Origin: an uncultured bacterium
Lineage (GTDB): Bacteria; Arandabacterota; Arandabacteria; Arandabacterales; Arandabacteraceae
Direction of reading: 5' to 3'
NCBI GenBank assembly: GCA_964598025.1
Contig: CAZRAU010000002.1
Location: 17,854 to 81,853, forward strand
DNA: 64,000 nucleotides
The translations under genes were made by a program, and so were the position numbers. Every line of letters starts with the position of its first letter. Position 1 is the stretch's first letter. The notes below the pieces were generated by a model. That model saw only the letters and a program-made list of their open reading frames with translations, was not told the origin of the DNA and made no database searches. Positions 5,554-31,292 of this stretch are shown in pieces.

Positions 5554-5563
5554 GGTGACCTCC
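5554..5563 (-). repeat. GGAGGTCACC motif copy (inverted orientation, 154 nt upstream of minus-strand HK ORF)
   Basis: Plus strand reads GGTGACCTCC. Confidence 0.6.
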
Positions 5564-5720: not shown

Positions 5721-5730
5721 GGAGGTCACC
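5721..5730 (+). repeat. GGAGGTCACC motif copy abutting ATG 5731
   Basis: gatGGAGGTCACCATGaag; SD-like GGAGG 5 nt before ATG. Confidence 0.7.
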
Positions 5731-7090: not shown

Positions 7091-7112
7091 CCGAACAGGG
7101 GGTAACCATAGG

Positions 7113-11041: not shown

Positions 11042-11153
11042 CTATCACCATGACTCGTCCTGACCGGGCAGTAGCTATGGGGCCGGCCGGTGCAACGCCC
11101 ATGGGCGCATCTGTGCCTATGATCAGGGTGACGGAAATGGATACATGATCAGC

Positions 11154-11181
11154 TTGACAATACCTGGGTCTGTGCTATGCT
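11154..11181 (+). promoter_or_regulatory. candidate sigma70-type promoter TTGACA-N16-TATGCT
   Basis: Exact -35 hexamer at 11154-11159 and TATGCT at 11176-11181 in the 425-nt intergenic region, about 290 nt upstream of the CheB-CheR ORF. Confidence 0.3.
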
Positions 11182-11467
11182 GGCATCATTGCGTGTTTGG
11201 CATCAGGATCAGCGGAGTGTCTGTTGTTCGATTGCATGGCATTGTGAAGCATGTCAAGGTTGTGGACAGGTGGGGACAGACAGTTTGCGAGACCGGATGA
11301 CCGCCCTGCTCGATTCCACTTGCATGAGTTGCGACACCGTGGATAGCCAAGCCGGACCGTCTGCGATCGGGGGAGCATACGCGACGGGTGAGTTGGGATC
11401 CCGGCGGACTGGGCAATGTGCGTTCGGGGATTGACGGTGCCGCCCTGAATGCCGAGCCAGGAAGGTC

Positions 11468-14400: not shown

Positions 14401-14869
14401 GGGAACGGGGATCGGTGTAATACTGGCGGATGAGACCATCCAGGTTGAATTCGACAAGGCGGATAAGGCCCGCCGCTACGCCGAGCGAATCGTCGACAGC
14501 GTGCGGGAACCCATGCTTGTGCTCGACTCAGGCCTGCGAGTGATTTCGGCCAGTGCCGCGTTCTTCAGCGAGTTCGCCGCAAAGCCCCGGGAGACACTGG
14601 GCTTACAGATTCATGAGATCGGAAACGCGCTGTGGGATATACCCGAGCTGAGAGACAGGCTTGAAAAGACCCTGGCCTCAGGCCTGATTCTCAGGGACCT
14701 CGTCGTGGAGCGCGACTTGCCCGGGATCGGGAGAAGAAAGATGCTTCTCAATGGGCGTAGGCTGAAAATAGCCAAGGGTGAACCCGTAATGTTGTTGCTT
14801 ACCATCGAGAATATCTCGGAAGACGCGCCCAGCCGGGCAAACGTCACGGATACCGCGTGTGATCGGTGA
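11468..14869 (+). CDS. CheB methylesterase - CheR methyltransferase fusion protein with coiled coil and PAS domains, no kinase domain
   Basis: CheB-type VAIVGIGASAGGLEALEGFF...VVIQH. CheR-type FFREPEAFEVL...LRVWVPGCGTGEEAYSIAILI. Heptad-repeat linker. PAS-like segments to the C-terminus. Confidence 0.85.
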   Translation: MMVAEKRKRKAKPTEPDRPRGKACGHGPKAKSCSPGTPSDEPVAIVGIGASAGGLEALEGFFDHLPPKSGIAYVVIQHLAPQHKSVMDAILSKHTGMRINRITSGMKAEPDNIYLNQPDKDVTIVNGLLCLAELEEPHGIRLPIDRFLRSLAADRGEKAVCVILSGTGSDGTQGLKAIKETGGMAMVQEKEQARYEGMPASALATGLVDFELPVEDMADEIMKFASHTYVRCQQAVTAPEEDMEGSFARIFSFIRSETGHDFSGYKRKTTQRRIERRMALHGIDAVDAYVTFLREDSNEVKALYRDMLITVTSFFREPEAFEVLEKTAVHELLDTREPDTALRVWVPGCGTGEEAYSIAILIAEHLAARKRHLEVQVFATDLDDGSIEYARAGVYPASIAADVKAKRLERFFVSVDGSWRIKRRIREMLVFAVQDLIKDPPFSNLDLISCRNVLIYLDGALQKEVLSLFHYVLRPGGYLFLGSAETIGGFGDRFETVDSKHRIYRRKEAIHGEVKPHGVPPFFERRGRYPLTGEPSSRSASDIRGLAHRAIIDKYTPPCVLINGRHEILYFHGDTDKYLASPAGEASLDILKMIRPEIRYKLSGALHSVSKGLETVVCDDLTVVHGCESVSLDLVVKPVEDLRGAPGMMLVVFEERRKPKPARRRAGRYKADHPEDSSATALQQELASTKEHLQAAIEELETSNEELRSANEELQSTNEELQSTNEELETAREELRSSNEELETVATEREHKIQTLSKAHDDLNNLLASTDIGTIFLDLELRIKFFTPPTTAIFNVIETDIGRPISDITTAAKYAGLDRDAREVLTTLTKKETEVQTTDGRWFTVKMLPYRTTDNVINGVVITFTDVTRIKRAREHLAISRVALAAFMESATDGMMLFDSEGNLIEMNSAALELFPRGIRKEDVTGESIAKVLGLIGQGDRAEDYYATLETGIPFIDGERQRHPRIAGRYFSARVFRTGTGIGVILADETIQVEFDKADKARRYAERIVDSVREPMLVLDSGLRVISASAAFFSEFAAKPRETLGLQIHEIGNALWDIPELRDRLEKTLASGLILRDLVVERDLPGIGRRKMLLNGRRLKIAKGEPVMLLLTIENISEDAPSRANVTDTACDR
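13559..13699 (+). repeat. in-frame tandem repeat, 6.7 x 21 nt, encoding EEL(Q/E)(S/T)(S/T/A)N heptads inside the CheB-CheR gene
   Basis: gaggagctggaaaccagcaat / gaagaactcagatcggccaat / gaagagctccaatcgaccaat / gaggagctccagtcgaccaat ... Confidence 0.9.
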
Positions 14870-15606: not shown

Positions 15607-15616
15607 GGAGGTCACT
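15607..15616 (+). repeat. GGAGGTCACC motif copy (9/10, GGAGGTCACt) abutting ATG 15617
   Basis: tGGAGGTCACTATGagg. Confidence 0.6.
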
Positions 15617-19209: not shown

Positions 19210-19219
19210 GGAGGTCACC
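19210..19219 (+). repeat. GGAGGTCACC motif copy followed by AGATGG, inside a 540-nt gene-free island
   Basis: gatGGAGGTCACCagATGg. Confidence 0.7.
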
Positions 19220-20684: not shown

Positions 20685-20694
20685 GGAGGTCACC
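20685..20694 (+). repeat. GGAGGTCACC motif copy abutting ATG 20695
   Basis: catGGAGGTCACCATGtta. Confidence 0.7.
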
Positions 20695-21297
20695 ATGTTA
20701 TTCAGACTGAGAATTGCCGCGTATGCGTGTATTGCGTGCGTGCTCATCGTAACACACTTTCTTGCCGCGGTGCGCCTCCACGGTGTTGGCGGCAATCTGT
20801 CGAGCGTGTTGTACGCAGCCCCGGGTATCGCGGCATTCATTCTGCTGTCCATAGTCATACACCGTGTGACACCCACCGGAGTGTCCACAGCCGGCCGCGT
20901 TGCCCAAAGGATGAAAGGGTTACACTGTCTCTACCAGGTCTCAGCGGTCATGGCGAGGGAGCAGGGATTGGTCGAGACCCTGCAGCAGGTAGTCGATCTG
21001 ATTCCGCCCGCCATGCAGTATCCGGGCAGCGCCCAAGCCAGGATAACATGCGCAGGGATGAACTTCAATACGTCAGGGTTTGTTGAGACGGAGTGGGGGA
21101 TTTCGTCTGAAATAAAGGTGGGTGGGAGACCGGTCGGCTCGCTTCAAGCCTGCTATGCAGCGGAACGCCCGGAGACCGAGCGCGGCCCCTTCCTTGAGTA
21201 TGAAGAACTGCTTATCAAGGCTCTTGCCGCTGAGGCAGGAGCATTCATCGAACAATATCAGGCTGCAGAGTCGCCGAGACTGCGACAGCGGGTGTAA
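20695..21297 (+). CDS. small membrane protein: 2 predicted TM helices + conserved 115-aa sensory module (no output domain); track start 20683
   Basis: Hydrophobic stretches IAAYACIACVLIV and GIAAFILLSIVI. Module LHCLYQVSAVM...AMQYP...TSGFVETEWGIS...FLEYEELLIKALAAEAGAFIEQ shared with the HKs at 15617 and 24628. Confidence 0.7.
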   Translation: MLFRLRIAAYACIACVLIVTHFLAAVRLHGVGGNLSSVLYAAPGIAAFILLSIVIHRVTPTGVSTAGRVAQRMKGLHCLYQVSAVMAREQGLVETLQQVVDLIPPAMQYPGSAQARITCAGMNFNTSGFVETEWGISSEIKVGGRPVGSLQACYAAERPETERGPFLEYEELLIKALAAEAGAFIEQYQAAESPRLRQRV

Positions 21298-21298
21298 C

Positions 21299-23212
21299 AT
21301 GCGAGACGAATACAAGTTCATCATAATCGGTGGAATTGCCGGCGCTGCCATTTACTTCACTCGAAGCGTCGCCAGTCCCCTGCTTTTTCCGGATCAGTCG
21401 GCCTGGGAGTGGATCGGCAACGAACTCCCGATCTATGCGATCGTTACGGTGTTCGCAGTGGCTGCATTGCGCATTCTCAGGGGCCACAGGGCGGTTGTTC
21501 GAACCACGAAACAGCTTCAACATGAGTCCGATATCCGTGACCGGATCAGCAGGACATTCCTGTTGGCCCCGGAAGAGAACGTGTACTCGGACGTGCTGGA
21601 TCACATAATCAAGTTCACCGGCAGCAAGCACGGCGTCTTCGGCTATCTGGATGAGCGCGGGCGCCTGGTATGTCCGTCCCTCACCGACCGCCAATGGGAT
21701 TTGCTGCAATCGCAGGATACAGGCATCGTCTTCAAGCGGCATACCTGGACGGGCCTATGGGGACGTGCGCTTACCGAACGAAGGCTCGTATGGTCGAACA
21801 GTAGCATAACCACACCAGGGGGGCCCGGGGCAGTACACCGGGCGGTAGGCGTTCCGCTAATGCATGAGCGCAAGGTCATCGGACTCCTGATGGTCGGGGA
21901 GAAACCGACGGACTACTCGCTTGCGGACCGGGTGTTCATTCAACATATTGCAGACCATATCGGGCCCATCCTGAACCGGAAACTCGAGGCATTCACGCCG
22001 GACTCGGAGGGTGGGGCCGGCTCGGACAGGCAGCAAGCACAGATCCGGATTCTCCAGCAGCAGCGTCTGGACGCTACATCCGCCGCGACGAGTGCCGTCG
22101 CCACCCAGTTCAGCCGGTGTGTATCCGGCACAGGGACCAAAATAGCCTCAGCGGTCAAGGGAGACGACCGGCGCCTGTTGCTCGGGGACCTCAGGCGGGT
22201 CTATGAGATCGGGCTCAGGTCGGTCAACCTGACACGGCAATTGCTGCTTCTTAATCGAAAGCACTTCATCAGGCCAGTTACCCTGGACATAAGCGTTGTA
22301 ATGCATGAAGTGCTGAAGATGATGGGCAATCTGCTAGGTGAAGATGTCGAGGTCACCGCCGATCTGGAGGCGGACCTCTGGTCTGTTCAAGCAGACCGAG
22401 CCGCGATAGAGCAGGTAATAACGGAACTGGTCATGAATGCCCTCGCTGCGATGCCGGCGGGAGGACATCTCCGGATTGAAACCCAAAACGCCGCCATCGG
22501 GGAAGGGGAATACGAGCTGACCGAAGAAGCCCGTCCCGGCAATTTCGTGTGCATATCGGTGACGGATGACGGGCACGGAATGGACAGGACCAAGCTCAAG
22601 AACGTATTCGAGCCGTTTACCGGTGGGGAAGAGGAAGAGGCGGGACCGGGCGTGGGCCTCTCGGTGGCCCGGAGCATAATCAGACAGCATGAAGGTTGGA
22701 TCAACGCATACAGTGAGCCGGGGCGAGGCTCGACGTTCAAGATGTACTTGCCCGGATTGGCGATTGCGCGCCGGGAGACCCATGAAGGGCCGGCGTCGAA
22801 TGAGGCCGTCAGGGGCCACGGAGAGAGAATCCTCCTGGTCGAAGACGAGGACGAAATCTGCGAATTGGTCGCACTCCTGCTTGCGGAGAACGGATACGCG
22901 GTGACCAGTGCCGCGCATGCCAATGAGGCCATCAGGATCTTCAGAAGCGAGAATGGGACATTCGACTTGTTATTCAGCGACATCGCACTACCCGACGAGG
23001 ACGGTATCTCCCTCGCAAACAGGCTGGTGCGAATCAAGCCCGATCTCCCGGTCTTGCTTACCAGCGGCTACATGGACGCCGAAGGCCAGTGGCGTATCAA
23101 GTGCGACAAGGGATACGGTTTCGTCAGCAAGCCCTTCTCGACCGCAGTCATGCTGAAGGAGGTCTCCCAGGCTCTCACCCAGGGTAGTGCCGTGGACAAG
23201 GTCACAGCGTAG
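21299..23212 (+). CDS. hybrid histidine-kinase-like protein (2TM-GAF-DHp-HATPase-REC) whose H-box histidine appears replaced (AVATQFSR instead of VAHDFNN)
   Basis: ATG 21299 one nt after the TAA of the upstream ORF. GAF similar to the 15617 protein. DHp alignment anchored on LTRQLLLLNRKH. Intact N/G boxes ([46 protein letters not shown]). Receiver with Asp (LLFSDIALPDEDG). Confidence 0.8.
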   Translation: MRDEYKFIIIGGIAGAAIYFTRSVASPLLFPDQSAWEWIGNELPIYAIVTVFAVAALRILRGHRAVVRTTKQLQHESDIRDRISRTFLLAPEENVYSDVLDHIIKFTGSKHGVFGYLDERGRLVCPSLTDRQWDLLQSQDTGIVFKRHTWTGLWGRALTERRLVWSNSSITTPGGPGAVHRAVGVPLMHERKVIGLLMVGEKPTDYSLADRVFIQHIADHIGPILNRKLEAFTPDSEGGAGSDRQQAQIRILQQQRLDATSAATSAVATQFSRCVSGTGTKIASAVKGDDRRLLLGDLRRVYEIGLRSVNLTRQLLLLNRKHFIRPVTLDISVVMHEVLKMMGNLLGEDVEVTADLEADLWSVQADRAAIEQVITELVMNALAAMPAGGHLRIETQNAAIGEGEYELTEEARPGNFVCISVTDDGHGMDRTKLKNVFEPFTGGEEEEAGPGVGLSVARSIIRQHEGWINAYSEPGRGSTFKMYLPGLAIARRETHEGPASNEAVRGHGERILLVEDEDEICELVALLLAENGYAVTSAAHANEAIRIFRSENGTFDLLFSDIALPDEDGISLANRLVRIKPDLPVLLTSGYMDAEGQWRIKCDKGYGFVSKPFSTAVMLKEVSQALTQGSAVDKVTA

Positions 23213-23408
23213 CGTCGAGACTTCTGTCGCGGGCGGGCCGGCTCGCGTCATCCGCGAACCTCGGTCGCGAGGTGACGGAGATGCCGGTGCCGTGGCAGAG
23301 GGTTTGTGAATAATCAGGGCTAGGTGGGACGGCGGAGGCTCCGGGTATCGGAGCGCCCCAGCGATGGAATCTGCGGGGCTGGCCGCGCTCGGCCAATGAC
23401 CGCGGTTT

Positions 23409-23418
23409 GGAGGTCACC
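23409..23418 (+). repeat. GGAGGTCACC motif copy in gene-free convergent intergenic island
   Basis: gtttGGAGGTCACCtaagg. Confidence 0.7.
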
Positions 23419-23474
23419 TAAGGAAGGTGCCGCGGCCAGAGGAGTGCGGCCAGCCCCATTGCCGCTCTCACACT

Positions 23475-23484
23475 GGAGGTCACC
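23475..23484 (+). repeat. GGAGGTCACC motif copy followed by AGATG (same extended form as copy at 19210)
   Basis: actGGAGGTCACCagATGtgg. Confidence 0.7.
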
Positions 23485-23885
23485 AGATGTGGGGTGAGCG
23501 GCATTGCAGATCGTATCGCTTCGGCGGGCGCGCCCGTGCAGCCGGCCATGTGGCCGGAACGGGGCCGTCGTCTGAAAACCGAACACGGGGATTGGAGTCC
23601 TCGTCGTCCCGGCTCCATCAGATCTTTTCGGCATGCCCAAAGCCTCCGCGTTTTCGTCTATCAAAAAAGGCACAATCGATGTCGTCTCACGTTTACGACG
23701 ACTCAATTGCGCCTTCGACTTGCAGGTCTTATAACCTGCCCGGCAAGGCGGCCCGCGCCCAAGTCGCGAGCCTTTTTCACTATCCAACTATCTACTTCGA
23801 CACATGGCCTGGAAACTTTAGCTGTTTTTGTGGCATCTTTTCTTTTTCACTCTTGGGCGCCATGCACGCTCGTCGGACGGCTGTC

Positions 23886-24635
23886 TCAATCGGTCGCGTC
23901 GACCAGGTCCTCAATCTTCTTGCGTAGGTCGCTGAGCTCCTTGGATCTGAACGACCGCTTGGACTTCTCGAGCACGTCGATCGTCTCCTTCATGGTGTCG
24001 ACGAGTTTCCTGGTTCTCGGGCAATCCAACAGACGGCAGATCTCGCCCTTGCCGGCTGAATCGGCAATAGCGGCCATGGCCGTCCTCAGGTCGGCCAAGC
24101 CGCCGGCGATGTGGCTGAGAGTCAACGCCACATACGTATCGGTGGGGACCGCGGGCAGGCCGGCCGGCTTTTCGGAAAGAACGCTCTTTATCTCGTCGAG
24201 GTCGCGGTCCCAGTCCAGGAGGCGCTGTTGAGTCTTACATACGGCCTTGAAAACCCTGGAACGTGAAAGGGCGGATTCGATCGCGGTCAGTAAGGCCGGA
24301 AAATCTATCGGTTTCAACACATAGGCAACGACGGGCAGGCTTACCGAATCTATGGCGGTTCTCATCGAGGGGTAGCCGGTTACCAGGATTACCGGGAGGC
24401 CATCGTCCAGGTCCTTGACTTTCCGAATAAGCTCCAGGTCGGGGTTCCCGGGCATCTTTATATCCGCGATAAGGAGATCGTACTTGTCCAGCCGCAGTGC
24501 CTCTGCCGCGGCCCTCCCATCCGGGACACAACAGCACTCATATCCCTCATCACGGAGAAGGTCACCGGTGGATTTCAGAAACGACATCTCATCGTCGGCA
24601 AGCAGCAGTTTCCCCTTAGAGGTGGTATCAGGCAT
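23886..24635 (-). CDS. response regulator: receiver + uncharacterised ~120-aa helical C-terminal domain
   Basis: KLLLADDEMSF...LLIADIKMPGNPD...VILVTGY...VAYVLKP. Overlaps the end of the upstream HK by 8 nt (operon). Confidence 0.75.
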   Translation of the reverse strand: MPDTTSKGKLLLADDEMSFLKSTGDLLRDEGYECCCVPDGRAAAEALRLDKYDLLIADIKMPGNPDLELIRKVKDLDDGLPVILVTGYPSMRTAIDSVSLPVVAYVLKPIDFPALLTAIESALSRSRVFKAVCKTQQRLLDWDRDLDEIKSVLSEKPAGLPAVPTDTYVALTLSHIAGGLADLRTAMAAIADSAGKGEICRLLDCPRTRKLVDTMKETIDVLEKSKRSFRSKELSDLRKKIEDLVDATD

Positions 24636-27471
24636 TCTGATCCTCCGATCTCCACGGCAATCTTACGATGAAGGTTGTCCCTTTGCCAACAGCAGTCTCG
24701 AAAGCGATGGTCCCTCCCATGGCCTCGATCATGTTCTTCGATACCGATAACCCCAGCCCCAGGCCGCGCAGATCGCCTTCGGACCTCGTGGTGAAAAACG
24801 GTTCGAATATCAGATCCCGGTGTTCGGGCGCGATCCCTGTACCGGCATCCTCAACTTCGATAACCACGCCGGAAGCCTCTCGATTGATGGACACCGTTAT
24901 CGTCCCGGATGTCGGGGACGCCTCAATGGCGTTGCTGAGCAGGTTGAACATCACCTGGCTGAAGTATCCGACCGGCAGCCTGACATTCACGGGCTCCTGC
25001 GGCGCGTTGCAGAGCAGCTTGATCTCCCTTGCCCTCAGACTGCTCTCGAGCAGAGTGAAGACCTCCTTAACCGAGTCGACCACCGAGATCGCGCGGCGCG
25101 GCTGCACCTCGTCGCGGTAAAGCTCGAACATCTTACGGATTATCAAGGCGATCCGGTCGATTTCGTGTCCGACCAGATCGACATACTCGAAACGCGGATG
25201 ATCCTTAGGGACGGCTCCCTTGATCAGAAGAAACGAGTTCTTGATGCCGGCAAGCGGATTGTTTATCTCATGGGCGATTCTGGCCGCCATCCTGCCGGTC
25301 GCGGCGATTCCTTCAGCGGAGGCGCGCTGCCGCTCGAGATCATGTATGCGCTGCGTTCGTTGCTCCACGAGTCTCTCCAATTCCTCGCTGTAGGTTCTAA
25401 TCTGCGCTTCCGCGAGGCGGAGCCCGCCCTCGCTGTTCTTAAGATTGGTGATGTCAACCGCCGAGACAAGCAGGTTTGTAGACATGTCCCGGGATGGGGC
25501 AACGGCAACCGAGCGGAGGCTGACATATCGCTCGCGGCCTTTGGCCGTGCGCGTGCGATACTCCGCATGGAAGCGAGCATTGCCGCCGGCGAGCGCTATG
25601 ATGGTGCCCACAAACGGCTCCAGCGCGGGGCCGCGGATACTCGAGACAACGAACTCTCGGAACTCATCCATTGTGGCACATTCATACAATCTCAGGGCCG
25701 CGTCATTCGCCCGGTCTATGCTCATCACTTGTGCGCATGCCGAGAGGTCATCCGGATGGCTTCGGAGGTGGGCTGCGCAGTCTGTAATGGCCCGTGATCG
25801 GAGATCATCGAGGTAGGCTATCACTTTCGCACAATCGATCTCGACCAGGGCGATGGGTGCTTCCTCGAACAGACGCCTGTAGGCTTCCTCGCTCTTCCTG
25901 AGTGCGCCTTCGGTTCGCTTGAGATCGGTAATATCCAGGATAACCCCCAGGAACCCCGCAAGCGACCCGTCCGGGCCGGCATACGTGGCCTTGTTGAAGA
26001 CCACGTCCCTGACGTCGCCGGCCGCCGTTTTGACCCGCCGCTCGTAGGTTTGGGTGCCTGGGTTCGCGAAGAGCTCGGCGTCCATCTTCGTACACTCGTC
26101 GGCGACCTCCTTGGGCGCTATCTCGTACCCGGTTTTGCCGATTATCTCAGCCTGCGTCAGCCCTATGAAGCGCTCGAAAGCCCGGTTACAGCCCGTGTAG
26201 CGCCCTTCCGGGCCCTTGTAGAACACAGGATTGGGGATTGTGTCCATCAGTATGCGTAGCAGCTCAAGCTGGCGCTTGAGTTCGACCTCGGCCTGTTTGC
26301 GCTGCGTGACGTCGCGGGCGACATTCATGATCTCGACAACCTTCCCATCCCTCAAGATCGGGATCGCGTTTATCTCGAAGCTGCGAACCGTGGCTTCGTC
26401 GAGATGCACTGCAACGTCGAAGCCCCGCACCTCCTCGCCGGCCCGCAGCCGCCCTGCAACCGTGGAGATGGCATCGGGGTCGGTTGCGGTGAAGAGTGAC
26501 AGGACATTGACATTCCTCGCTTCCTCCAGTGTGAGCCCGAGGAGGTCGAGGCTGGCCTTGTTTGCATAAAGGATACGGCCGTCGGCATCGGTGAGGTACG
26601 TGTGATCAGGATTAGCCGACAGGAAGAGATTCAGTCTCCGTTCGTGCTCGGCGATCTCCATCCGCCCCCATCTTCGCTCGATGAAACCGGCGATGTCTCC
26701 TGCCAATATGTCGATGAGCCGCTTCTCCTCCTCAAGGAAGGGGGCTTCGGTGGGCCGGGCCGGATCCTCAAGGTAGTAAACCTCTATGGCCCCGACGAGA
26801 GCATCCTTTACTCTTATGTCCGATGACATCCTGCATGGGCTTTCCTCGAAGCCGGAGGTTCTCACCTCGGTACCGGACAATACGATTCGCACGCATGTGT
26901 CGCCGGGGCGGCTCATGGCCGACGGCAGTAGATTCGCTATCTCCTGGAGCACCCGGGGGACTTCGGCTTCCGGGTCTGCCATCGCTTTCGACGTCGCGTG
27001 AAGGCAACTGAGTTCTCGCACCCGCACATGGAGTTTTCCCCGCTTGTCTTCCAGTTGCGCCATCGCAGTCTTCTGCTCGGTAATGTCACGGAAGATTTCC
27101 ACTCTGTGGCGGGTCCCATCAGGATTCCGGACCAGCGTATCAATGATGTCGTATATCCGCTTGTTCTTCGGGCAGAACCATTCCCTTCGGGACTTCTCTC
27201 CGCGGTAAACCGCCTCACTCGGACAGCCCTCGCAGGTTGTCGGGCCTTGTTCGAAGTACTCATAGCACTTTCTGCCCTCCCAGGGGCCGTATAGGTCTTC
27301 GATCAAGTGGTTGACATAGAGGACGTCACGGGTCTGGTTGGTGATCAACAAGCCGTCTTCGAGGGCATCAAACACCCTGCGGAGATTATCAAGATCGTCC
27401 ATCAACCGCGCGCGGGCCCCTTCCGGCTCCCGTACCGACCGGTTCTTGGTCTTCGCTCGATCTCCCATCAT
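24628..27471 (-). CDS. multi-PAS sensor histidine kinase carrying the conserved 115-aa sensory module; ATG 27471 preferred (track GTG 27516)
   Basis: H-box AHEINNPLAGIKNSFLL. HATPase NLLSNAIEASPTSG...DAGTGIAPEH...GLGLGLSVSKNMIEAMGGTIAFETAVGKGTTF. Module LSCLHATSKAM...SAMSRP...TSGFEESPC...FLEEEKRLIDILAGDIAGFIERR. GGGAGG SD before ATG 27471. Confidence 0.85.
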   Translation of the reverse strand: MMGDRAKTKNRSVREPEGARARLMDDLDNLRRVFDALEDGLLITNQTRDVLYVNHLIEDLYGPWEGRKCYEYFEQGPTTCEGCPSEAVYRGEKSRREWFCPKNKRIYDIIDTLVRNPDGTRHRVEIFRDITEQKTAMAQLEDKRGKLHVRVRELSCLHATSKAMADPEAEVPRVLQEIANLLPSAMSRPGDTCVRIVLSGTEVRTSGFEESPCRMSSDIRVKDALVGAIEVYYLEDPARPTEAPFLEEEKRLIDILAGDIAGFIERRWGRMEIAEHERRLNLFLSANPDHTYLTDADGRILYANKASLDLLGLTLEEARNVNVLSLFTATDPDAISTVAGRLRAGEEVRGFDVAVHLDEATVRSFEINAIPILRDGKVVEIMNVARDVTQRKQAEVELKRQLELLRILMDTIPNPVFYKGPEGRYTGCNRAFERFIGLTQAEIIGKTGYEIAPKEVADECTKMDAELFANPGTQTYERRVKTAAGDVRDVVFNKATYAGPDGSLAGFLGVILDITDLKRTEGALRKSEEAYRRLFEEAPIALVEIDCAKVIAYLDDLRSRAITDCAAHLRSHPDDLSACAQVMSIDRANDAALRLYECATMDEFREFVVSSIRGPALEPFVGTIIALAGGNARFHAEYRTRTAKGRERYVSLRSVAVAPSRDMSTNLLVSAVDITNLKNSEGGLRLAEAQIRTYSEELERLVEQRTQRIHDLERQRASAEGIAATGRMAARIAHEINNPLAGIKNSFLLIKGAVPKDHPRFEYVDLVGHEIDRIALIIRKMFELYRDEVQPRRAISVVDSVKEVFTLLESSLRAREIKLLCNAPQEPVNVRLPVGYFSQVMFNLLSNAIEASPTSGTITVSINREASGVVIEVEDAGTGIAPEHRDLIFEPFFTTRSEGDLRGLGLGLSVSKNMIEAMGGTIAFETAVGKGTTFIVRLPWRSEDQNA

Positions 27472-27531
27472 GGGCCTCCCGGAGTGGGTAATAGCGATGC
27501 ACCGGACACCCGGCACCGCTATGGTATACCA

Positions 27532-27714: not shown

Positions 27715-27724
27715 GGAGGTCACC
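27715..27724 (+). repeat. GGAGGTCACC motif copy about 100 nt upstream of the CHASE-HK ORF
   Basis: gaccGGAGGTCACCggtccaATG (short ORF only). Confidence 0.6.
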
Positions 27725-27821
27725 GGTCCAATGAAATGCATATCCCGGGACCAACGGCTGACGCGTGCCGGCGGCGGCACCGGAAGGTCATGAGGCATTC
27801 CTGGCACCCGCTGCCTGAGAG

Positions 27822-30800
27822 GTGGGCGAGACCTTGGATACGGCAAGAGCACTTCCGAAGCACTCAGGTTTGAGAGCATACGTGACCCCGGCCATCATAG
27901 TATGCCTGGGCATATGGATGTCGGTGTATAGTTTCACGACGGCGAGGGGACGGGCCGCGAAGCAGAAGAAGTCCATCTTCGCCGAATCTGCCAGAAAAGA
28001 CGTGGCCCGGTTGAGTGGGCATTTGGCGACCCATGAGATCGTTCTCAGGTCGCTGAGAGCTTTCTATGAGGGGTCGGAGTACGTAAGCCGCAAGGAGTTC
28101 CAGGACTTCACGAATATAGTGCTTTCCGGCCTCACGGATGTCGATGCCCTGATGTGGTTACCCAGGGTGGCGGCCGGCGAACGTGACGCCGTCGAGCGCG
28201 AAGCGGCTGCTTCCGGTGTTCTTGGTTTCGAGATAATCTCTCTCGGTGAGCAGGGCCTGCCGGTCCGTGCCGATGACCGGGTTGAGTATTTCCCCATTCT
28301 ATACATAAGCCCCATGGCCGGCAATCAGAGCCGCCTGGGCATGGATTGGGGTGAGGTTCCCGAGCTCAGACTCGGATTGGACCGCGCAAGGGACGGCGAC
28401 AGACCGGTCACAGTCCGCTTCCCTCCCGGAGCCTGGGGCGATGAGCCGGCGCCGGTCCTTGCAACCATCCTACCCGTCTATCGAAAGGGAACATGGATCC
28501 AATCGATGGACAATAGGCGCACATACCTGGAAGGTTTCCTGGTCGAGGTGTATGAACCCGACCGGATTCTCGGAATGGGCGCCTTGCCCGGGGATTCTCA
28601 TGCCGCCGGCCTCATGATCGCTATGATCAGAGACGACACGTCAGGCGCGGTGATATATGAGAACGGCGTCGTTCCAAGCGTCATGACGGCACCCGACGGC
28701 GATATGGTCTTTCCCGAGATTGACGGCGCGCTCCATGGTGTCGCTACCCTGGGCGTGGGGCGGGCGGCATGGACGGTGTTCTCGACCCCCGGCGCCGAGC
28801 TGGCATCTCTCAGCAAGGGATGGTCTTCATGGTTGCTCCTCTTCACGGGATTGGCCCTCACCGGAGGGATCGCGACCTACCTCGTCATCGTGCAACGAAG
28901 TTCCGCCGAGATTGCGTGGTATGCGGACGAACTCCAGGTGACCCAGACCGAGCTCGAGCGCAGGCTCTCGGAATACCTCATTGCCGAGAAGACCCTCAAT
29001 GAGAGCGAACGCTATCTCAAGGTGATATTCGACACGGTTTCAACCGGCATGCTGGTGATCGATCCGGAGTCTCACACCATAGTCGATGCCAACATGGCCG
29101 CTGCAGGTCTGGTCGGTGTGCGTAAGGAACACCTGGTGGGCCGGGGCTGTCAGGGCCTTGTCTGCAATACCGAGAGCGGGGGTTGTCCTGTTACGGACAG
29201 GGGCGAGATCCTCGACAATTCCGAATCCACGTTCCTTAATGCTTCCGGAGAAGAGGTGCCCTGCCTCAGGACCGTGGTGCCGATCACGCTCAAGGGCAAG
29301 AAGCATCTCCTGGATTGCATTGTGGACATAAGCAGCCAGAAACGCGCGCAAGCGGCGGCCGAGCGTGAGAGCGCGAAATTGTCGGCCATGATTTCGGGCA
29401 TGGAAGAGGGGGTCGTATTCGCGGATGCGCAGAACGTGATTACGGGGGTGAACGATTTCTTCTGCCGGTTTGTGGGTAAGGACGGCGATGAGATCCTCGG
29501 CAGGCACATTGAGGCCCTTCACTCCGGCCGCATACTGGACCACGTCAAGGGATTGCTCCAGGGTTTCCGCTCGAATGTTCACTCCGAGCCATTTACCTTG
29601 CAGCGACAACTCGGTGGCGCCGAGGTGCTCCTCCGAATACAGCCGATCTACCGCGGGGGTGACTATGACGGTGTGCTTCTCAACGTAATCGACGTGAGCA
29701 AACTCGTCGGCGCGCGGCGGCAGGCGGAGGAAGCGACGAGGGCCAAGAGCGAGTTCCTTGCCAACATGAGCCACGAGATAAGGACGCCCATGACCGCGAT
29801 CATGGGCTATGCCGACCTGCTTACCGGTCCGGGGCTCGATGACAAAGACAGGCTGGACTATCTGGACATCATCCGACGCAACGGCGCCCATCTGTTGGCC
29901 CTCATTAACGACATACTTGACCTCTCCAAGATCGAAGCCGGGAGACTGCTGATCGAAAAGGACAGCAGCGACCTGCTGGCAATGCTGGCGGACGTCGCGA
30001 GCACAATGCGGGTGAGGGCGAGGGAGCGTGATACCGAACTCAGGACCGAATTCCCCACCAGCCTGCCGAAGACCATCATGACGGATCGGTCCAGGCTGCA
30101 TCAGGTACTCGTCAATCTCGTCGGCAACGCAGTGAAATTCACCAAAGGCGGCAGCGTTACCGTAAGGACATCGGTCTTGTCCGAGTGGCATGGGGAAGGG
30201 CCTGCGGTACGCATCGAGGTCATCGACACCGGAATAGGAGTCAGCAAGGAGAGACTGCCCAGGCTTTTTGAACCCTTTGTGCAGGCGGATGCGTCCACCT
30301 CGCGGGAGTATGGTGGAACCGGCTTGGGTCTCACCATCAGCGCTCGCATCATGGGTTTGCTCGGTGGTGAGATTTCCGCCGCGAGCGAACCCGGCAAGGG
30401 CAGCACCTTCGCTGTCACAGTACCCACTGGTGATCTTGAAGGTGTTGAAGTGATAGAAACGCCGAGCGAGTCTCTCATCGAAGCCAGGGCGGACCTCGGC
30501 CCGGCTGTTGTCGATCCGGATGCCCTCAAGGGGTTGCGCATTCTTGTTGCCGAGGACGGCCCGGACAACCAGCGCCTCATCAAGACCGTGTTGTCGAATG
30601 CGGGAGGGCTTGTGACACTGGTCGAGGACGGGAGCGCCGCTGTCGATGCCGTAGCAAACGGTGTCTTTGATGTGGTGCTCATGGATCTTCAGATGCCGAC
30701 TATGGACGGCTACGAGGCCACAAGGACACTCAGGGCCCGAGGCTACAAGATCCCGATCCTAGCCCTGACGGCTCACGCTATGTCGGCGGATCGGGATAAA

Positions 30801-31292
30801 TGCATGGCCGCCGGTTGTGATGATCACCTGACGAAGCCCATCAATCAGCAGAAACTCATAACGAAGGTAGTCCGGTGGGCAAGGAATCACGGCGCACCGG
30901 AAGACGGCCGGCTCGTTACCGGTGTTCAAGACAGGGATGACGGGGAGGTGATATCACACGTGGAGCGAGTGGTTTCCGAGTATGCAGACGATCCGGCCCT
31001 CGCCGGGATACTCGAGGTGTTTGTTACCGGGTTGACCGGGAAAGTCCATGCCATGAAAGATCATCTCGCCAATGGGAATCTTGATGAACTCGAGCGCCTG
31101 GCCCACCAACTCAAGGGGGCCGGCGGCAGCTATGGCTACCCGATTATTACGGAAGCAGCGGCCGGGATCGAGGCCGCTTGCCAGAAGGGCGACAAGGAGG
31201 CGGTTCCGCGGGGGATTGATCTGCTGGAGCGGCTTTGCGGGGCCATCACGGCGGGATTCGAAAAGACGACGAAATCGCCTGCCGGCGTCTAG
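27822..31292 (+). CDS. unorthodox hybrid sensor kinase: TM - periplasmic CHASE-like domain - TM - PAS x2 - HisKA - HATPase - REC - HPt
   Basis: TM AIIVCLGIWMSVYSF and WSSWLLLFTGLALTGGIATYLVIV flanking a ~300-aa CHASE-like domain. H-box ANMSHEIRTPMTAIMGYADLL. HATPase GNAVKFT...DTGIGV...GTGLGLTISARIMGLLGG. Receiver LRILVAEDGPDNQ...VLMDLQMPTMDG...ILALTAHA. HPt HQLKGAGGSYG. Confidence 0.88.
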   Translation: MGETLDTARALPKHSGLRAYVTPAIIVCLGIWMSVYSFTTARGRAAKQKKSIFAESARKDVARLSGHLATHEIVLRSLRAFYEGSEYVSRKEFQDFTNIVLSGLTDVDALMWLPRVAAGERDAVEREAAASGVLGFEIISLGEQGLPVRADDRVEYFPILYISPMAGNQSRLGMDWGEVPELRLGLDRARDGDRPVTVRFPPGAWGDEPAPVLATILPVYRKGTWIQSMDNRRTYLEGFLVEVYEPDRILGMGALPGDSHAAGLMIAMIRDDTSGAVIYENGVVPSVMTAPDGDMVFPEIDGALHGVATLGVGRAAWTVFSTPGAELASLSKGWSSWLLLFTGLALTGGIATYLVIVQRSSAEIAWYADELQVTQTELERRLSEYLIAEKTLNESERYLKVIFDTVSTGMLVIDPESHTIVDANMAAAGLVGVRKEHLVGRGCQGLVCNTESGGCPVTDRGEILDNSESTFLNASGEEVPCLRTVVPITLKGKKHLLDCIVDISSQKRAQAAAERESAKLSAMISGMEEGVVFADAQNVITGVNDFFCRFVGKDGDEILGRHIEALHSGRILDHVKGLLQGFRSNVHSEPFTLQRQLGGAEVLLRIQPIYRGGDYDGVLLNVIDVSKLVGARRQAEEATRAKSEFLANMSHEIRTPMTAIMGYADLLTGPGLDDKDRLDYLDIIRRNGAHLLALINDILDLSKIEAGRLLIEKDSSDLLAMLADVASTMRVRARERDTELRTEFPTSLPKTIMTDRSRLHQVLVNLVGNAVKFTKGGSVTVRTSVLSEWHGEGPAVRIEVIDTGIGVSKERLPRLFEPFVQADASTSREYGGTGLGLTISARIMGLLGGEISAASEPGKGSTFAVTVPTGDLEGVEVIETPSESLIEARADLGPAVVDPDALKGLRILVAEDGPDNQRLIKTVLSNAGGLVTLVEDGSAAVDAVANGVFDVVLMDLQMPTMDGYEATRTLRARGYKIPILALTAHAMSADRDKCMAAGCDDHLTKPINQQKLITKVVRWARNHGAPEDGRLVTGVQDRDDGEVISHVERVVSEYADDPALAGILEVFVTGLTGKVHAMKDHLANGNLDELERLAHQLKGAGGSYGYPIITEAAAGIEAACQKGDKEAVPRGIDLLERLCGAITAGFEKTTKSPAGV

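What the first reader, a model, noticed from the sequence alone, without database searches (positions are those of the whole stretch)
23213..23885. Convergent intergenic island with two motif copies and an AT-rich segment
- Motif copies: two GGAGGTCACC copies (23409, 23475) lie 56 nt apart on the plus strand, between two convergently transcribed genes. No credible plus-strand gene follows; the ORF at 23427 has non-protein-like composition.
- AT-rich tract: 23640-23880 is markedly AT-richer than the surrounding 62% GC DNA, with runs such as TATCAAAAAAGG and TTTTCTTTTTCAC.
- Candidate roles: sRNA gene, bidirectional terminator region, or remnant of an inserted element.
Basis: seen in the sequence. 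Interest (0 to 1): 0.5.

Follow-up and report, generated by a model that had tools for sequence, protein, structure and literature searches.

The report
Two linked regulatory RNA genes
The "empty" spacer holds two conserved non-coding RNAs on the minus strand: a widespread RNA missing from Rfam that looks like a switchable transcription stop signal, followed by a folded RNA whose two loops are exact complements of the ribosome-binding site shared by six nearby signalling genes.

Summary
GGAGGTCACC occurs 7 times in the window against 0.2 expected. The tract 23640-23880 has GC 0.52, in the lowest 0.5% of windows.

The spacer is conserved non-coding RNA on the MINUS strand, not junk, a bidirectional terminator or an insertion remnant.

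- **RNA A (23789-23663, the "AT-rich tract").** It has a sigma-28-type promoter, two hairpins, invariant GCCUUGYCG and AAGUCGAAGG, and a long terminator with U6. Its covariance model hits beside homologues of the adjacent response regulator in about 55 of 79 genome loci, which span many phylum-level groups. Rfam 15 has no match. Mutually exclusive helices, and copies 14-130 nt upstream of REC and MCP genes elsewhere, suggest a conditional terminator.
- **RNA B (about 23649-23332; core 23520-23360).** This is a closed multi-helix fold (z -8) found in Eisenbacteria-like lineages. The two motif copies sit in loops as GGUGACCUCCA, complementary to the UGGAGGUCACC binding site that follows sigma-28-type promoters of six signalling genes. 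Loop motif and binding-site motif change together in relatives (CACC, CAUC, CGUC).

Best model: read-through of A produces B, which masks those ribosome-binding sites. The strand of B, co-transcription and pairing are inferred, not shown.

The parts
23813..23820 (-). -35 element TAAAGTTT of the sigma-28 (FliA)-type promoter of RNA A
   Evidence: The pattern TAAA-N15/16-GYCGA matches at 23820-23797 (5 matches in the window, 0.92 expected). The element is conserved in L081, L084, L091, L098, L099 and L101. The same promoter type precedes RNA A in at least 16 of 59 copies across phyla. Coordinates.
23794..23801 (-). -10 element GTCGAAGT (consensus GCCGATAA; the GTCGA core is conserved)
   Evidence: The spacer to the -35 TAAAGTTT element is 11 nt, as in the E. 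coli FliA consensus (own knowledge).
23663..23789 (-). RNA A: a roughly 127-nt conserved RNA (P1 hairpin, switch region, P2 hairpin, terminator). It belongs to a widespread family not in Rfam.
   Evidence: Covariance model R1 scores 107.5 bits, E 5e-31. RNAalifold finds 31 pairs, 22 with compensatory changes. Rfam gives no hit even at E<=10.
23750..23772 (-). P1 hairpin of RNA A (GGCUCGCG / CGCGGGCC)
   Evidence: All 5 modelled pairs change on both sides across 24 sequences. L091 shows CG->AU swaps.
23741..23749 (-). Conserved 5' segment GCCUUGCCG. It can pair with the middle AAGGC to form the anti-terminator helix P-alt.
   Evidence: Cells are 98% paired, with one G-C to A-U swap and two wobble changes. 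The extension pair covaries as G-C, U-A, A-U and G.U in 62 sequences. It is the MFE structure of the nascent RNA.
23722..23739 (-). P2 hairpin of RNA A (GCAGGU / ACCUGC)
   Evidence: All 5 pairs show changes on both sides, and 94% of cells are paired.
23711..23721 (-). Invariant AAGUCGAAGGC. It is shared between the anti-terminator helix and the base of the terminator.
   Evidence: AAGTCGAAGG is invariant in the 24-sequence alignment. It is GAAGGC in 56 of the 62 aligned full-length matches.
23663..23716 (-). Intrinsic terminator of RNA A: a roughly 20-bp hairpin followed by U6 (23668-23663)
   Evidence: Folding. The stem covaries strongly except at its conserved base GAAGGC/GCCUUU.
23633..23649 (-). 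5' arm (GCGGAGGCUUUGGGCAU) of the long-range helix that encloses RNA B. It starts 13 nt after the U-tract of RNA A.
   Evidence: Inverted repeat I2. It forms in the MFE fold of the 332-nt RNA. In L005 it is fully Watson-Crick with compensatory changes, and the U.G pairs are only possible on the minus strand.
23360..23520 (-). Core of RNA B: closing stems plus two hairpins (H1, H2), each carrying one motif copy
   Evidence: z-score is -9.2 on the minus strand and -7.7 on the plus strand. The core is conserved in L081, L084, L091/L093, L098, L099, L101 and L005, with compensatory changes in P0, H1a, H2a and H2b.
23474..23484 (-). Motif copy 1, GGUGACCUCCA, in the terminal loop region of hairpin H1
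   Evidence: The GACCUCC core is invariant in all lineages, while the neighbouring stems vary. In L099 and L005 it lies in an open 15-17-nt loop.
23408..23418 (-). Motif copy 2, GGUGACCUCCA. ACCUCCAAA is single-stranded in the internal loop of hairpin H2.
23332..23348 (-). 3' arm (AUACCCGGAGCCUCCGC) of the long-range helix. It contains a third CCUCC.
23886..24635 (-). Response regulator (REC domain plus an uncharacterised helical C-terminal domain with conserved Cys). It is the genomic partner of RNA A.
   Evidence: Pfam finds REC only. About 55 of the 79 genome loci found through homologues of this protein carry RNA A, nearly all just downstream on the same strand. Alignment A7; AF2 model.
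5554..5563 (-). Predicted target: GGAGGTCACC ribosome-binding site behind a sigma-28-type promoter, ahead of a PAS histidine kinase
5721..5730 (+). Predicted target: the same promoter and binding-site module directly before the ATG of a REC protein
15607..15616 (+). Predicted target: GGAGGTCACT then ATG (15617) of a PAS/GAF hybrid kinase, behind a sigma-28-like promoter
19210..19219 (+). Predicted target: 16 nt (TGGAGGTCACCAGATG) identical to 23474-23489, before a 141-aa ORF
   Evidence: It is the best non-self duplex in the window, -29.5 kcal/mol.
20685..20694 (+). Predicted target: the same module before the ATG of a 200-aa ORF
27715..27724 (+). Predicted target: the same module before a 20-codon uORF ahead of a CHASE hybrid kinase

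Best explanation
The spacer encodes a two-part regulatory RNA unit on the minus strand, downstream of the PAS-kinase and response-regulator genes.

**Part 1, RNA A (23789-23663).** It is transcribed from a sigma-28 (FliA)-type promoter. It folds into P1, then either an anti-terminator hairpin or a strong intrinsic terminator. The anti-terminator is GCCUU-GYCG-P2-AAGUCG-AAGGC. The terminator is GAAGGC...GCCUUUUUU. Both use the same AAGGC, so A works as a conditional terminator. The most likely factor that stabilises the anti-terminator is the adjacent response regulator, whose output domain is uncharacterised.

**Part 2, RNA B (about 23649-23332).** It is made when transcription reads through A. 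It is a closed, highly structured RNA. Two loops expose GGUGACCUCCA, an exact 11-nt complement of UGGAGGUCACC. That sequence is the Shine-Dalgarno region lying 0-7 nt before the start codons of at least six signalling genes in this window. All six also sit behind sigma-28-type promoters, so it lies at the extreme 5' end of their mRNAs. B pairs with these sites and blocks, or otherwise tunes, ribosome binding. The same sigma factor would then drive both the targets and their RNA regulator, with the two-component system as the gate.

**Shown:**
- Conservation, covariation and promoter/terminator signals of A.
- Conservation and structure of B.
- Non-random occurrence of the motif at ribosome-binding sites.
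- Co-variation of the loop motif with the binding-site motif.

**Inferred:**
- The strand of B.
- A-to-B read-through.
- Actual pairing and its outcome.
- The role of the response regulator.
For: **RNA A**
- CM hit of 107.5 bits in the window. About 55 of 79 response-regulator loci from many phylum-level groups carry it, nearly always just downstream on the same strand.
- 22 of 31 pairs show compensatory changes. Shuffle controls reach the observed percent paired, both-sided changes and covariation score in 0 of 500 (pair types 1 of 500).
- Sigma-28-type promoters (TAAAG-N15-GCCGATAA) precede at least 16 of 59 copies. Sigma-70-type promoters precede 5 others. So it is an independently promoted unit.
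- The three segments GCCUU / AAGGC / GCCUU are conserved with only wobble-compatible or compensated changes. An extra G-C pair of the alternative helix covaries as U-A, A-U and G.U.
- The nascent RNA folds into the anti-terminator. The full-length MFE is the terminator, at -57.8 against -52.1 kcal/mol.
- In L102 the U-tracts lie 43, 14 and 86 nt before REC genes and an ORF, with no room for another promoter. In Planctomycetes A lies 45-130 nt upstream of MCP genes.

**RNA B**
- z-scores are -9.2 for the core and -8.2 for the 332-nt RNA.
- It is present in eight lineages, with compensatory changes in P0, H1a, H2a, H2b and the outer helix.
- The GACCUCC core is invariant.

**Strand of B**
- In non-terminal helix positions there are 15 G.U cells against 5 A.C cells, about 11 against 3 independent events.
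- The outer helix carries tandem U.G pairs that become C-G and U-A in L005.
- B follows A in the same order in all lineages. It lies 12 nt after the U-tract in L091 and is fused to A in L101.

**Targets**
- The exact motif occurs 7 times against 0.2 expected.
- The 5 copies outside B, plus one GGAGGTCACT, all lie behind sigma-28-like promoters and 0-7 nt before start codons.
- They rank among the best 9 of 25,584 duplex windows.
- Co-variation between loop and binding site: window and L081 have loops GGUGACCUCC with sites GGAGGUCACC. L091 has loop 1 GAUGACCUCC with sites GGAGGUCAUC (two sites). L005 has loops GACGACCUCC with site GGAGGUCGUC followed by ATG, behind a sigma-28-like promoter.
Against: - No transcript data exist. 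Strand, 5'/3' ends and read-through are all inferred.
- The MFE of the B core is as good or slightly better on the plus strand, with more G.U pairs in the unconstrained plus-strand folds.
- A few positions favour the plus strand: an A.C in H2a of the window clade, and the inner stem of H1.
- Matching of loop and binding-site motifs is equally expected if the plus strand is a decoy that mimics the site.
- No terminator for B was found on either strand (and reading).
- In many phyla A is followed by a convergent gene or a long gap, not by a same-strand gene. A may therefore also act as a free-standing sRNA.
- The terminator in the window is strong (about a 20-bp stem plus U6), so read-through may be rare.
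- Nothing shows that the response regulator binds RNA. Its C-terminal domain has no known fold match, and the model is of low confidence there.
- The sigma-28 assignment rests on the promoter consensus only. No fliA gene was examined, and the -10 of A matches 5 of 8.
Confidence: 0.5

Rival explanations
1. RNA B is made from the plus strand, as the 3' UTR of the GAF hybrid kinase gene or as its own sRNA. It acts as a decoy. Its loops display UGGAGGUCACC, the same sequence as the ribosome-binding sites of the sigma-28-type regulon. They would titrate whatever binds those sites: a CsrA-like GGA-binding translational repressor, another RNA, or 30S subunits. This would resemble CsrB/RsmY/RsmZ sponges.
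For: - The plus strand folds equally well or better: window -98.2 against -96.4 kcal/mol, L081 -93.2 against -85.9, with more G.U pairs in unconstrained folds.
- There is a G.U in H2a of the window clade, and G.U pairs in the inner H1 stem of L081, L091 and L098.
- Three to four GGA motifs fall within about 90 nt on the plus strand, including an AAGGA pentaloop.
- Identity with the binding-site motif, and its co-variation, fits a mimic as well as an antisense RNA.
Against: - The outer helix would carry 2-4 adjacent A.C mismatches on the plus strand, yet it is conserved with compensatory changes.
- G.U against A.C events run 11 to 3 in favour of the minus strand.
- The AAGGA loop and the inner H1 stem are not conserved in L091, L098, L099 or L005.
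- The model needs an unidentified third partner.
- A 10-11-nt identity is longer than CsrA-type recognition needs (own knowledge).
- The U-rich stretch after the outer helix on the plus strand is absent in L081.
Confidence: 0.17
2. RNA A is a free-standing trans-acting sRNA that always terminates at 23663. Its conserved single-stranded AAGUCGAAGG or GCCUUGYCG would be a seed or a protein-binding site. RNA B is an independent element with its own promoter or processing. The two are neighbours, not one unit.
For: - A has its own promoter and a strong terminator.
- In many loci nothing on the same strand follows A closely.
- B exists only in Eisenbacteria-like lineages, whereas A is widespread.
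- L005 has a sigma-28-like sequence (TAAAG-N15-AACGATAA) between A and B.
Against: - The 5' arm of the conserved outer helix of B starts 13 nt after A's U-tract, leaving no room for a promoter.
- In L091 and L101, B follows or fuses to A's terminator.
- The base of the terminator and the upstream GCCUU are sequence-conserved across phyla, which a plain terminator does not need.
- In L102, genes start 14-43 nt after the U-tract.
Confidence: 0.2
3. The motif works at the DNA level. GGAGGTCACC contains the interrupted palindrome GGTCACC and lies at about +1 to +12 of the sigma-28-type promoters. It could be an operator for a DNA-binding repressor, and the two copies in the spacer would be extra binding sites. 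Alternatively the whole spacer is only structural, as terminator or REP-like hairpins.
For: - The motif sits at a fixed distance (7-8 nt) from the -10 element in six promoters.
- GGTCACC is its own reverse complement apart from its central base (read directly from the sequence).
Against: - Stems around the two copies keep pairing through compensatory substitutions, which selection on DNA sites would not produce.
- The variants GGAGGTCGTC (L005) and GGAGGTCATC (L091) lose the palindrome but keep GGAGG and the loop complementarity.
- The element is single-copy in the window and syntenic, unlike REP or MITE repeats.
Confidence: 0.05

Closest known systems
sRNAs with C-rich or anti-Shine-Dalgarno loops (RsaE/RoxS in Firmicutes; CcsR/'cuckoo' and AbcR RNAs with CCUCC-type loops in Alphaproteobacteria). 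Recalled from own knowledge, not tested here.
   Same: Hairpin or internal loops expose a CCUCC-containing sequence in more than one copy. This pairs with ribosome-binding sites of several mRNAs.
   Different: - There is no sequence or structure similarity, and no Rfam hit.
- The complementarity extends to 10-11 nt. It is specific for one promoter-defined gene set, not for SD sequences in general.
- The RNA lies behind a conserved attenuator-like RNA.
- Pairing has not been demonstrated.
FliA-dependent sRNA CJnc170 of Campylobacter jejuni, which together with the RpoN-dependent CJnc230 tunes flagellar gene expression (PMC11187230, found; only title and abstract seen)
   Same: An sRNA is transcribed from a FliA (sigma-28)-type promoter and acts back on the motility or late regulon after transcription.
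   Different: - The organism is from an unrelated phylum and the RNA is unrelated.
- The targets here are two-component and signalling genes, not flagellar structural genes.
- FliA dependence here is inferred from the promoter sequence only.
Riboswitch-gated sRNAs EutX (Enterococcus) and Rli55 (Listeria), which interact with the ANTAR response regulator EutV (own knowledge: Mellin et al. and DebRoy et al., Science 2014)
   Same: A 5' sensor domain with a conditional terminator decides whether the 3' effector part of a non-coding RNA is made. There is a close functional link to a response regulator without a DNA-binding domain.
   Different: - There is no B12 aptamer.
- RNA A has no ANTAR-type dual hexaloop hairpins.
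- The response regulator has no ANTAR domain.
- The effector part is proposed to pair with mRNAs, not to sequester the regulator.
Protein-dependent antitermination with an overlapping antiterminator and terminator (RAT/BglG-SacY-LicT; ANTAR AmiR/NasR/EutV). Own knowledge.
   Same: The 3' arm of a conserved irregular hairpin overlaps the 5' arm of an intrinsic terminator. The regulator gene is adjacent.
   Different: - The RNA motif differs.
- The protein has no CAT/PRD or ANTAR domain.
- Binding is untested.
- Many copies are not followed by a same-strand gene.
CsrB/RsmY/RsmZ sponge RNAs
   Same: On the plus strand there are several GGA-containing motifs in loops of a multi-hairpin RNA.
   Different: - Strand evidence points the other way.
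- Only the GGAGGUC core is conserved, not A(N)GGA loops.
- There is no Rfam match to any Csr/Rsm family.

Membership tests
Any Rfam 15 family (4227 covariance models) | A match to a family model at its gathering score, or at least a suggestive E-value | tested here: not met
   The whole window gives 0 hits at gathering score. 23100-24000 gives 0 hits at E<=10. Nine related loci (50 kb) give no hit over RNA A at E<=1.
Rho-independent (intrinsic) terminator (RNA A 3' end, minus strand) | A G+C-containing stem-loop directly followed by a U-tract on the transcribed strand | tested here: met
   A roughly 20-bp stem at 23716-23666 is followed by U6 at 23668-23663. It is conserved with covariation in 24 to about 60 sequences. 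The simple scanner missed it because its loop and stem limits are narrower.
Bidirectional terminator | A hairpin flanked by an A-tract upstream and a U-tract downstream, so that it terminates on both strands | tested here: not met
   On the plus strand the hairpin is followed by UUCGACUUGC, with no U-tract. No plus-strand terminator was found.
Sigma-28 / FliA-type promoter | -35 TAAA(GTTT) and -10 GCCGATAA separated so that TAAA-N15-GCCGATAA | tested here: met
   The promoter of A reads TAAAGTTT-N11-GTCGAAGT, matching the -35 at 8 of 8 and the -10 at 5 of 8. Near-perfect versions precede A in L004, L005, L040, L102 and L103. Six target genes have TAAA/TCAA-N15/16-GYCGAYNN.
Sigma-28 / FliA-type promoter | Dependence on a FliA-family sigma factor encoded in the genome | not testable with these tools
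   No fliA gene lies in the window, and complete genomes of the clade could not be fetched. Indirect support only: MCP genes lie downstream of A in Planctomycetes, and motA/motB lie beside the locus in L103.
Transcription attenuator / riboswitch-like leader (RNA A) | Mutually exclusive anti-terminator and terminator helices sharing one strand | tested here: met
   The 5' GCCUU and the 3' GCCUU both pair with AAGGC. Changes are wobble-compatible or compensated, and the extension pair covaries. The energy gap between the two forms is 5.7 kcal/mol.
Transcription attenuator / riboswitch-like leader (RNA A) | Consistently located upstream of the gene(s) it controls | tested here: inconclusive
   This holds in L102 (14-86 nt to REC genes and an ORF), L065, L069, L074 and L077 (MCP genes), and L067, L068 and L003. 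In many other loci a convergent gene or a gap of more than 300 nt follows. In the window clade RNA B follows.
Base-pairing anti-RBS sRNA (RNA B) | An accessible, conserved seed complementary to the translation-initiation regions of several mRNAs | tested here: met
   There is 11-nt perfect complementarity to five sites and 10 nt plus a wobble to a sixth. The GACCUCC core is invariant and lies in loops. The seed and the binding-site motif co-vary in three states.
Base-pairing anti-RBS sRNA (RNA B) | Transcribed from the strand that carries the complement, with a measurable effect on targets | not testable with these tools
   Only indirect strand evidence is available: G.U against A.C events at 11 to 3, and linkage to A.
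CsrA/RsmA-sequestering sRNA | Multiple A(N)GGA motifs in hairpin loops, conserved among homologues | tested here: not met
   The AAGGA pentaloop seen on the plus strand in the window is replaced by unrelated loops in L084, L091, L098, L099 and L005. Only the GGAGGUC core persists.
ANTAR-regulated RNA | Two tandem hairpins with hexanucleotide loops (A at position 1, G at 4), the second overlapping a terminator, plus an ANTAR-domain regulator | tested here: not met
   P1 and P2 loops are 6-9 nt and variable. The response regulator has no ANTAR Pfam hit at E<=0.01.
Mobile-element remnant / REP-MITE | Multiple dispersed copies, or presence/absence polymorphism at the syntenic site | tested here: not met
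   The window holds no other copy beyond the 10-16-nt binding-site motif. The spacer is conserved at the same site in all relatives examined.

The most novel reading that the evidence does not exclude
RNA A may define a new, phylum-spanning class of response-regulator-controlled antiterminator RNA. In this reading the adjacent CheY-like regulator is an RNA-binding output protein. It has a REC domain plus a Cys-containing helical domain of unknown function. When phosphorylated it would clamp the invariant GYCG/AAGUCG internal loop, suppress the terminator, and switch on downstream chemotaxis and signalling genes (MCPs, REC proteins). In Eisenbacteria-like bacteria it would instead switch on an anti-RBS RNA that shuts off translation of a whole sigma-28-type regulon through its shared 5'-terminal ribosome-binding site.
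Probability: 0.2. Interest if true: 0.85.

Novelty: new variant of a known kind. Interest (0 to 1): 0.66.

Why it matters
- **RNA A would be a new widespread RNA family.** If confirmed, it adds a bacterial RNA family seen in Planctomycetota, Zixibacteria, Latescibacterota, Eisenbacteria, Nitrospirota, Hydrogenedentes, delta-proteobacterial bins and others. It is absent from Rfam and is tied to a large family of response regulators whose output domain has no known function. That gives a concrete, testable idea of what these orphan regulators do.
- **RNA B would be an unusually clean regulatory design.** One sigma-factor regulon would be marked by a shared, extended ribosome-binding site at the mRNA 5' end. 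It would be controlled after transcription by one RNA with two copies of the complement. Seed and sites co-evolve across lineages.
- **It bears on poorly known organisms.** It offers an entry point for studying regulation in uncultured FCB-group bacteria.
- **It is a caution for annotation.** Long convergent spacers in MAGs can hold regulatory RNA genes.

Tried and rejected
- **Known RNA families:** Rfam at gathering score and at E<=10, and a tRNA/tmRNA scan, found nothing.
- **Consensus scanner:** the promoter/terminator scanner found nothing in 23000-24100. It is limited to sigma-70 hexamers and short-loop terminators, so it missed the sigma-28-type promoter and the long terminator.
- **Plasmid BLAST of the spacer:** no match.
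- **Protein-coding readings of the spacer:**
  - Pfam on ORFs 23487-23927(+), 23320-23787(-) and 23418-23618(-) gave nothing.
  - The 23-codon ORF at 23863-23792(-) and the 66-codon ORF at 23618-23418(-) are not conserved in L081/L084.
- **Exact-protein look-up of the response regulator:** it returned only a 1-kb contig.
- **Genome-collection scan with the response regulator:** it found no close relative (at most 51% identity). Instead it revealed how widespread RNA A is.
- **Metagenome pattern scan for the two-copy motif:** it returned only the window's own sequence (L096), an L091-like contig (L093) and four unrelated tandem repeats.
- **Automatic MAFFT plus RNAalifold of RNA B:** it mis-aligned the inner stems, so helices were curated by hand.
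- **MFE comparison of the two strands:** not decisive.
- **Literature searches:** searches by sequence and by keywords found no description of RNA A.
- **A sigma-28-type promoter directly upstream of the B core** (the conserved AGCGAUA box): considered and rejected, because no -35 element is conserved there.
- **Reading A as a 3'-UTR element of the response-regulator gene:** rejected, because many copies have clear promoters of their own.
Full report
**1. Checking the observation**

The 673-nt spacer 23213-23885 lies between two convergent genes. A GAF/HATPase/REC hybrid kinase (21122-23212, +) faces a REC-domain response regulator (23886-24635, -). The regulator is the last gene of a PAS-kinase/regulator pair (24628-27516, -).

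TGGAGGTCACC occurs at 23408-23418 and 23474-23484, 66 nt start-to-start. The exact 10-mer GGAGGTCACC occurs 7 times in the window. Dinucleotide-preserving shuffles give 0.20, and none of 100 reaches 7.

The tract 23640-23880 has GC 0.519. The window mean is 0.599 (sd 0.033), and only 0.5% of 241-nt windows are as low. This is a real but modest dip. No ORF in the spacer has a Pfam match.

**2. The motif elsewhere in the window**

The five copies outside the spacer (5563-, 5721+, 19210+, 20685+, 27715+) share one context. Each has a sigma-28-like promoter, T(A/C)AA-N15/16-GYCGAYNN. The motif follows 7-8 nt later, and a start codon 0-7 nt after that. A sixth site (15607, GGAGGTCACT then ATG at 15617) has the same layout.

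The pattern TAAA-N15/16-GYCGA occurs 5 times against 0.92 expected. Three of these are such genes, and one lies in the spacer on the minus strand.

The genes encode a REC protein, a PAS kinase, a PAS/GAF hybrid kinase, two small unknown proteins, and a short uORF ahead of a CHASE hybrid kinase. With the usual distance between a sigma-28 -10 element and the start site (own knowledge), these mRNAs would begin at or next to UGGAGGUCACC. That is an inference.

**3. Relatives**

The regulator has homologues of 76, 74, 68, 63, 63 and 59% identity in metagenome contigs and in a Candidatus Eisenbacteria MAG. The loci that extend far enough show the same gene order, and all keep the regulator-RNA A arrangement.

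Aligning the spacers, all turned so that the regulator is on +, which equals the window's minus strand, shows two conserved blocks separated by variable sequence. That variable sequence is absent in L091.

**4. Block A (window 23789-23663, minus), the AT-rich tract**

Block A starts after a conserved promoter: TAAAGTTT (23820-23813), N11, GTCGAAGT (23801-23794). It continues through hairpin P1, GCCUUGCCG, hairpin P2 and AAGUCGAAGGC. It ends in a roughly 20-bp hairpin followed by U6 (23668-23663).

- **How widespread it is.** The 10-mer AAGTCGAAGG turned up just downstream of regulator homologues in dozens of the 79 genome loci fetched with the protein. A 24-sequence alignment gives 31 consensus pairs, 22 with compensatory changes. 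A covariance model built from it (R1) scores 107.5 bits on the window and 35-115 bits at 60 sites. About 55 of the 79 genome loci carry it, nearly always just downstream of the regulator on the same strand. These loci are labelled Planctomycetota (several orders), Zixibacteria, Latescibacterota, Eisenbacteria, Nitrospiraceae, Hydrogenedentes, LCP-89, delta-proteobacterial bins and others.
- **Its promoters.** Many copies have their own promoter. It is sigma-28-type in at least 16 of 59, and sigma-70-type (TTGACA/TATAAT) in 5.
- **Not a known family.** Rfam 15 has no match even at E<=10. Full-text searches found no description.

**5. How A probably works**

Three segments are conserved in sequence across phyla: a 5' GCCUU, a middle (G)AAGGC, and a 3' GCCUU(U). 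The middle segment can pair with either of the others.

The 5'/middle helix closes P2, with an internal loop GYCG/AAGUCG. It is 98% paired, with one G-C to A-U swap and two wobble changes. In 62 sequences its extension pair, beyond a bulged G, covaries as G-C, U-A, A-U and G.U. The middle/3' helix forms the base of the terminator, and its variants are also wobble-compatible.

The nascent RNA folds into the first form. The full-length MFE is the terminator, at -57.8 against -52.1 kcal/mol. This is the architecture of a conditional terminator.

In other lineages genes follow A closely:
- In L102, three copies have U-tracts 43, 14 and 86 nt before two REC genes and an ORF. Two of these copies sit behind perfect sigma-28-type promoters.
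- In Planctomycetes loci, A lies 45-130 nt before MCP genes. It also precedes NtrC-type and LuxR-type regulators and a GAF protein.

Many other copies are followed by convergent genes. A free-standing sRNA role therefore cannot be excluded.

**6. Block B (core 23520-23360)**

The core folds into closing stems plus two hairpins. The z-score is -9.2 on the minus strand and -7.7 on the plus strand. Each hairpin carries one motif copy.

A long-range helix (23649-23633 with 23348-23332) encloses it, and the 332-nt RNA has z -8.2.

Homologues exist in L081, L084, L091/L093, L098, L099, L101 (second hairpin only, fused to A) and L005. L005 has two simple hairpins, GCACA-CCACYGACGACCUCC-UGUGC. Stems keep pairing through compensatory changes, while the core GACCUCC is invariant and lies in loops.

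**7. Strand of B**

Free energies do not decide the strand. In hand-curated conserved helices, non-terminal positions show 15 G.U cells against 5 A.C cells in the minus orientation. That is about 11 against 3 independent events.

The outer helix has tandem U.G pairs in the window clade. These become C-G and U-A in L005, and on the plus strand they would be adjacent A.C mismatches.

B always follows A in the same order. The outer helix begins 13 nt after A's U-tract in the window. In L091, B starts 12 nt after the U-tract. In L101 a deletion fuses the two.

I therefore place B on the minus strand, at roughly 75-80%, as the read-through product of A.

**8. What B probably does**

On the minus strand the loops read GGUGACCUCCA, an exact complement of the UGGAGGUCACC binding sites of section 2. 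Those sites are among the 9 best of 25,584 duplex windows in the window.

The loop motif and the binding-site motif change together:
- Window and L081: loops GGUGACCUCC, sites GGAGGUCACC.
- L091: loop 1 is GAUGACCUCC, and two sites are GGAGGUCAUC. One follows a clear sigma-28-type promoter; the other follows a GCCGATAT -10 box.
- L005: both loops are GACGACCUCC, and a site is GGAGGUCGUC followed by ATG.

This ties B to these sites functionally. It does not by itself separate pairing (minus strand) from mimicry (plus strand). Pairing needs no third partner, and it fits the strand evidence and the 10-11-nt length of the match.

**9. Rivals**

- A plus-strand decoy of CsrB type (0.17).
- A and B as independent neighbours (0.20).
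- DNA-level operator sites or purely structural hairpins (0.05).

An insertion remnant and a bidirectional terminator are rejected.

**10. Comparison with known systems and verdict**

B works like the C-rich-loop or anti-SD sRNAs, and like FliA-dependent sRNAs such as C. jejuni CJnc170 (PMC11187230). A followed by B resembles riboswitch-gated sRNAs (EutX/Rli55) and RAT- or ANTAR-type antitermination. None of the defining sequence or domain features of those families is present (see the membership table).

The finding is a new variant of known kinds of regulation. It is built from one RNA family that appears to be undescribed and widespread, and one clade-specific RNA. All functional steps beyond conservation, structure and motif statistics remain to be shown experimentally.

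Noticed in passing
window 5554-5563(-), 5721-5730(+), 15607-15616(+), 19210-19219(+), 20685-20694(+), 27715-27724(+): Six signalling genes share one module: a sigma-28-like promoter, then 7-8 nt, then GGAGGTCAC(C/T), then 0-7 nt, then the start codon. This implies very short leaders that consist almost only of an extended ribosome-binding site.
   Followed up: yes
window 27731-27793 (+): The motif at 27715 is followed by a 20-codon ORF (MKCISRDQRLTRAGGGTGRS), not directly by the CHASE hybrid kinase ORF (27822-31292). This could be a uORF or leader peptide, or a mis-called start. In L081 the kinase appears to start 5 nt after the motif.
   Followed up: partly
window 23886-24635 (-) and homologues P0001-P0120: The response-regulator family has four conserved cysteines: C34 and C36 in the REC domain, and C200 and C205-P206 in the C-terminal domain. 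It also has a conserved basic last helix (K226, F229, S231, K232, R238). There is no Pfam or NCBIfam family for the C-terminal half. This hints at a metal- or redox-sensitive, or RNA-binding, output domain.
   Followed up: partly
L102:11096-11226, 11967-12096, 12943-13071: Three tandem copies of RNA A lie in one locus, interleaved with REC-domain genes. Two have perfect sigma-28-type promoters. The third starts 4 nt after the stop codon of the preceding regulator gene.
   Followed up: partly
L065:6888-7022 and 9771-9906; L069, L074, L077: In Planctomycetes (Thermoguttaceae, Planctomycetaceae), RNA A sits 45-130 nt upstream of methyl-accepting chemotaxis protein genes. In L065 this happens twice in tandem.
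   Followed up: partly
L103:1-2175 and 10819-11200: In another lineage the kinase/regulator/RNA A locus lies beside motA/motB stator genes. The sequence after RNA A has a GCGGAGG...CCUCCGC long-range helix around a 15-bp hairpin. This may be a distant analogue of RNA B without the loop motifs.
   Followed up: no
window 7056-8648 (+) and 11468-14869 (+): A KaiC homologue (two KaiC/RecA-like ATPase halves) and a CheB-CheR fusion with PAS domains are embedded in a 30-kb cluster made almost entirely of histidine kinases, response regulators and a GGDEF protein.
   Followed up: no
window 59843-59862: There is a perfect 20-nt palindrome, GGAGATCACCGGTGATCTCC, with a related GGCGGTCACC 9 nt downstream. 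It lies near the 3' end of a minus-strand ORF in the polysaccharide cluster and resembles the binding-site motif by one base.
   Followed up: no
loci L011, L036, L051, L065, L066, L074 (regulator 3' ends): The invariant RNA 10-mer AAGTCGAAGG also occurs inside the regulator coding sequence of several Planctomycetes. There it encodes the conserved peptide FKSKE(L). This is probably a coincidence of codon usage, but it is the same sense as in the RNA.
   Followed up: no
L005:6800-6940: Upstream of RNA A in the Eisenbacteria MAG L005 there is a second sigma-28-type promoter, followed by a truncated A-like start. This looks like a tandem partial duplication of the promoter region.
   Followed up: no
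window 31376-63559 (-): A long minus-strand polysaccharide/O-antigen-type biosynthesis cluster. It includes a sugar transferase, epimerase, glycosyltransferases, carbamoyltransferase, a Wzy-like protein, a Wzt ABC transporter and an asparagine synthase.
   Followed up: no
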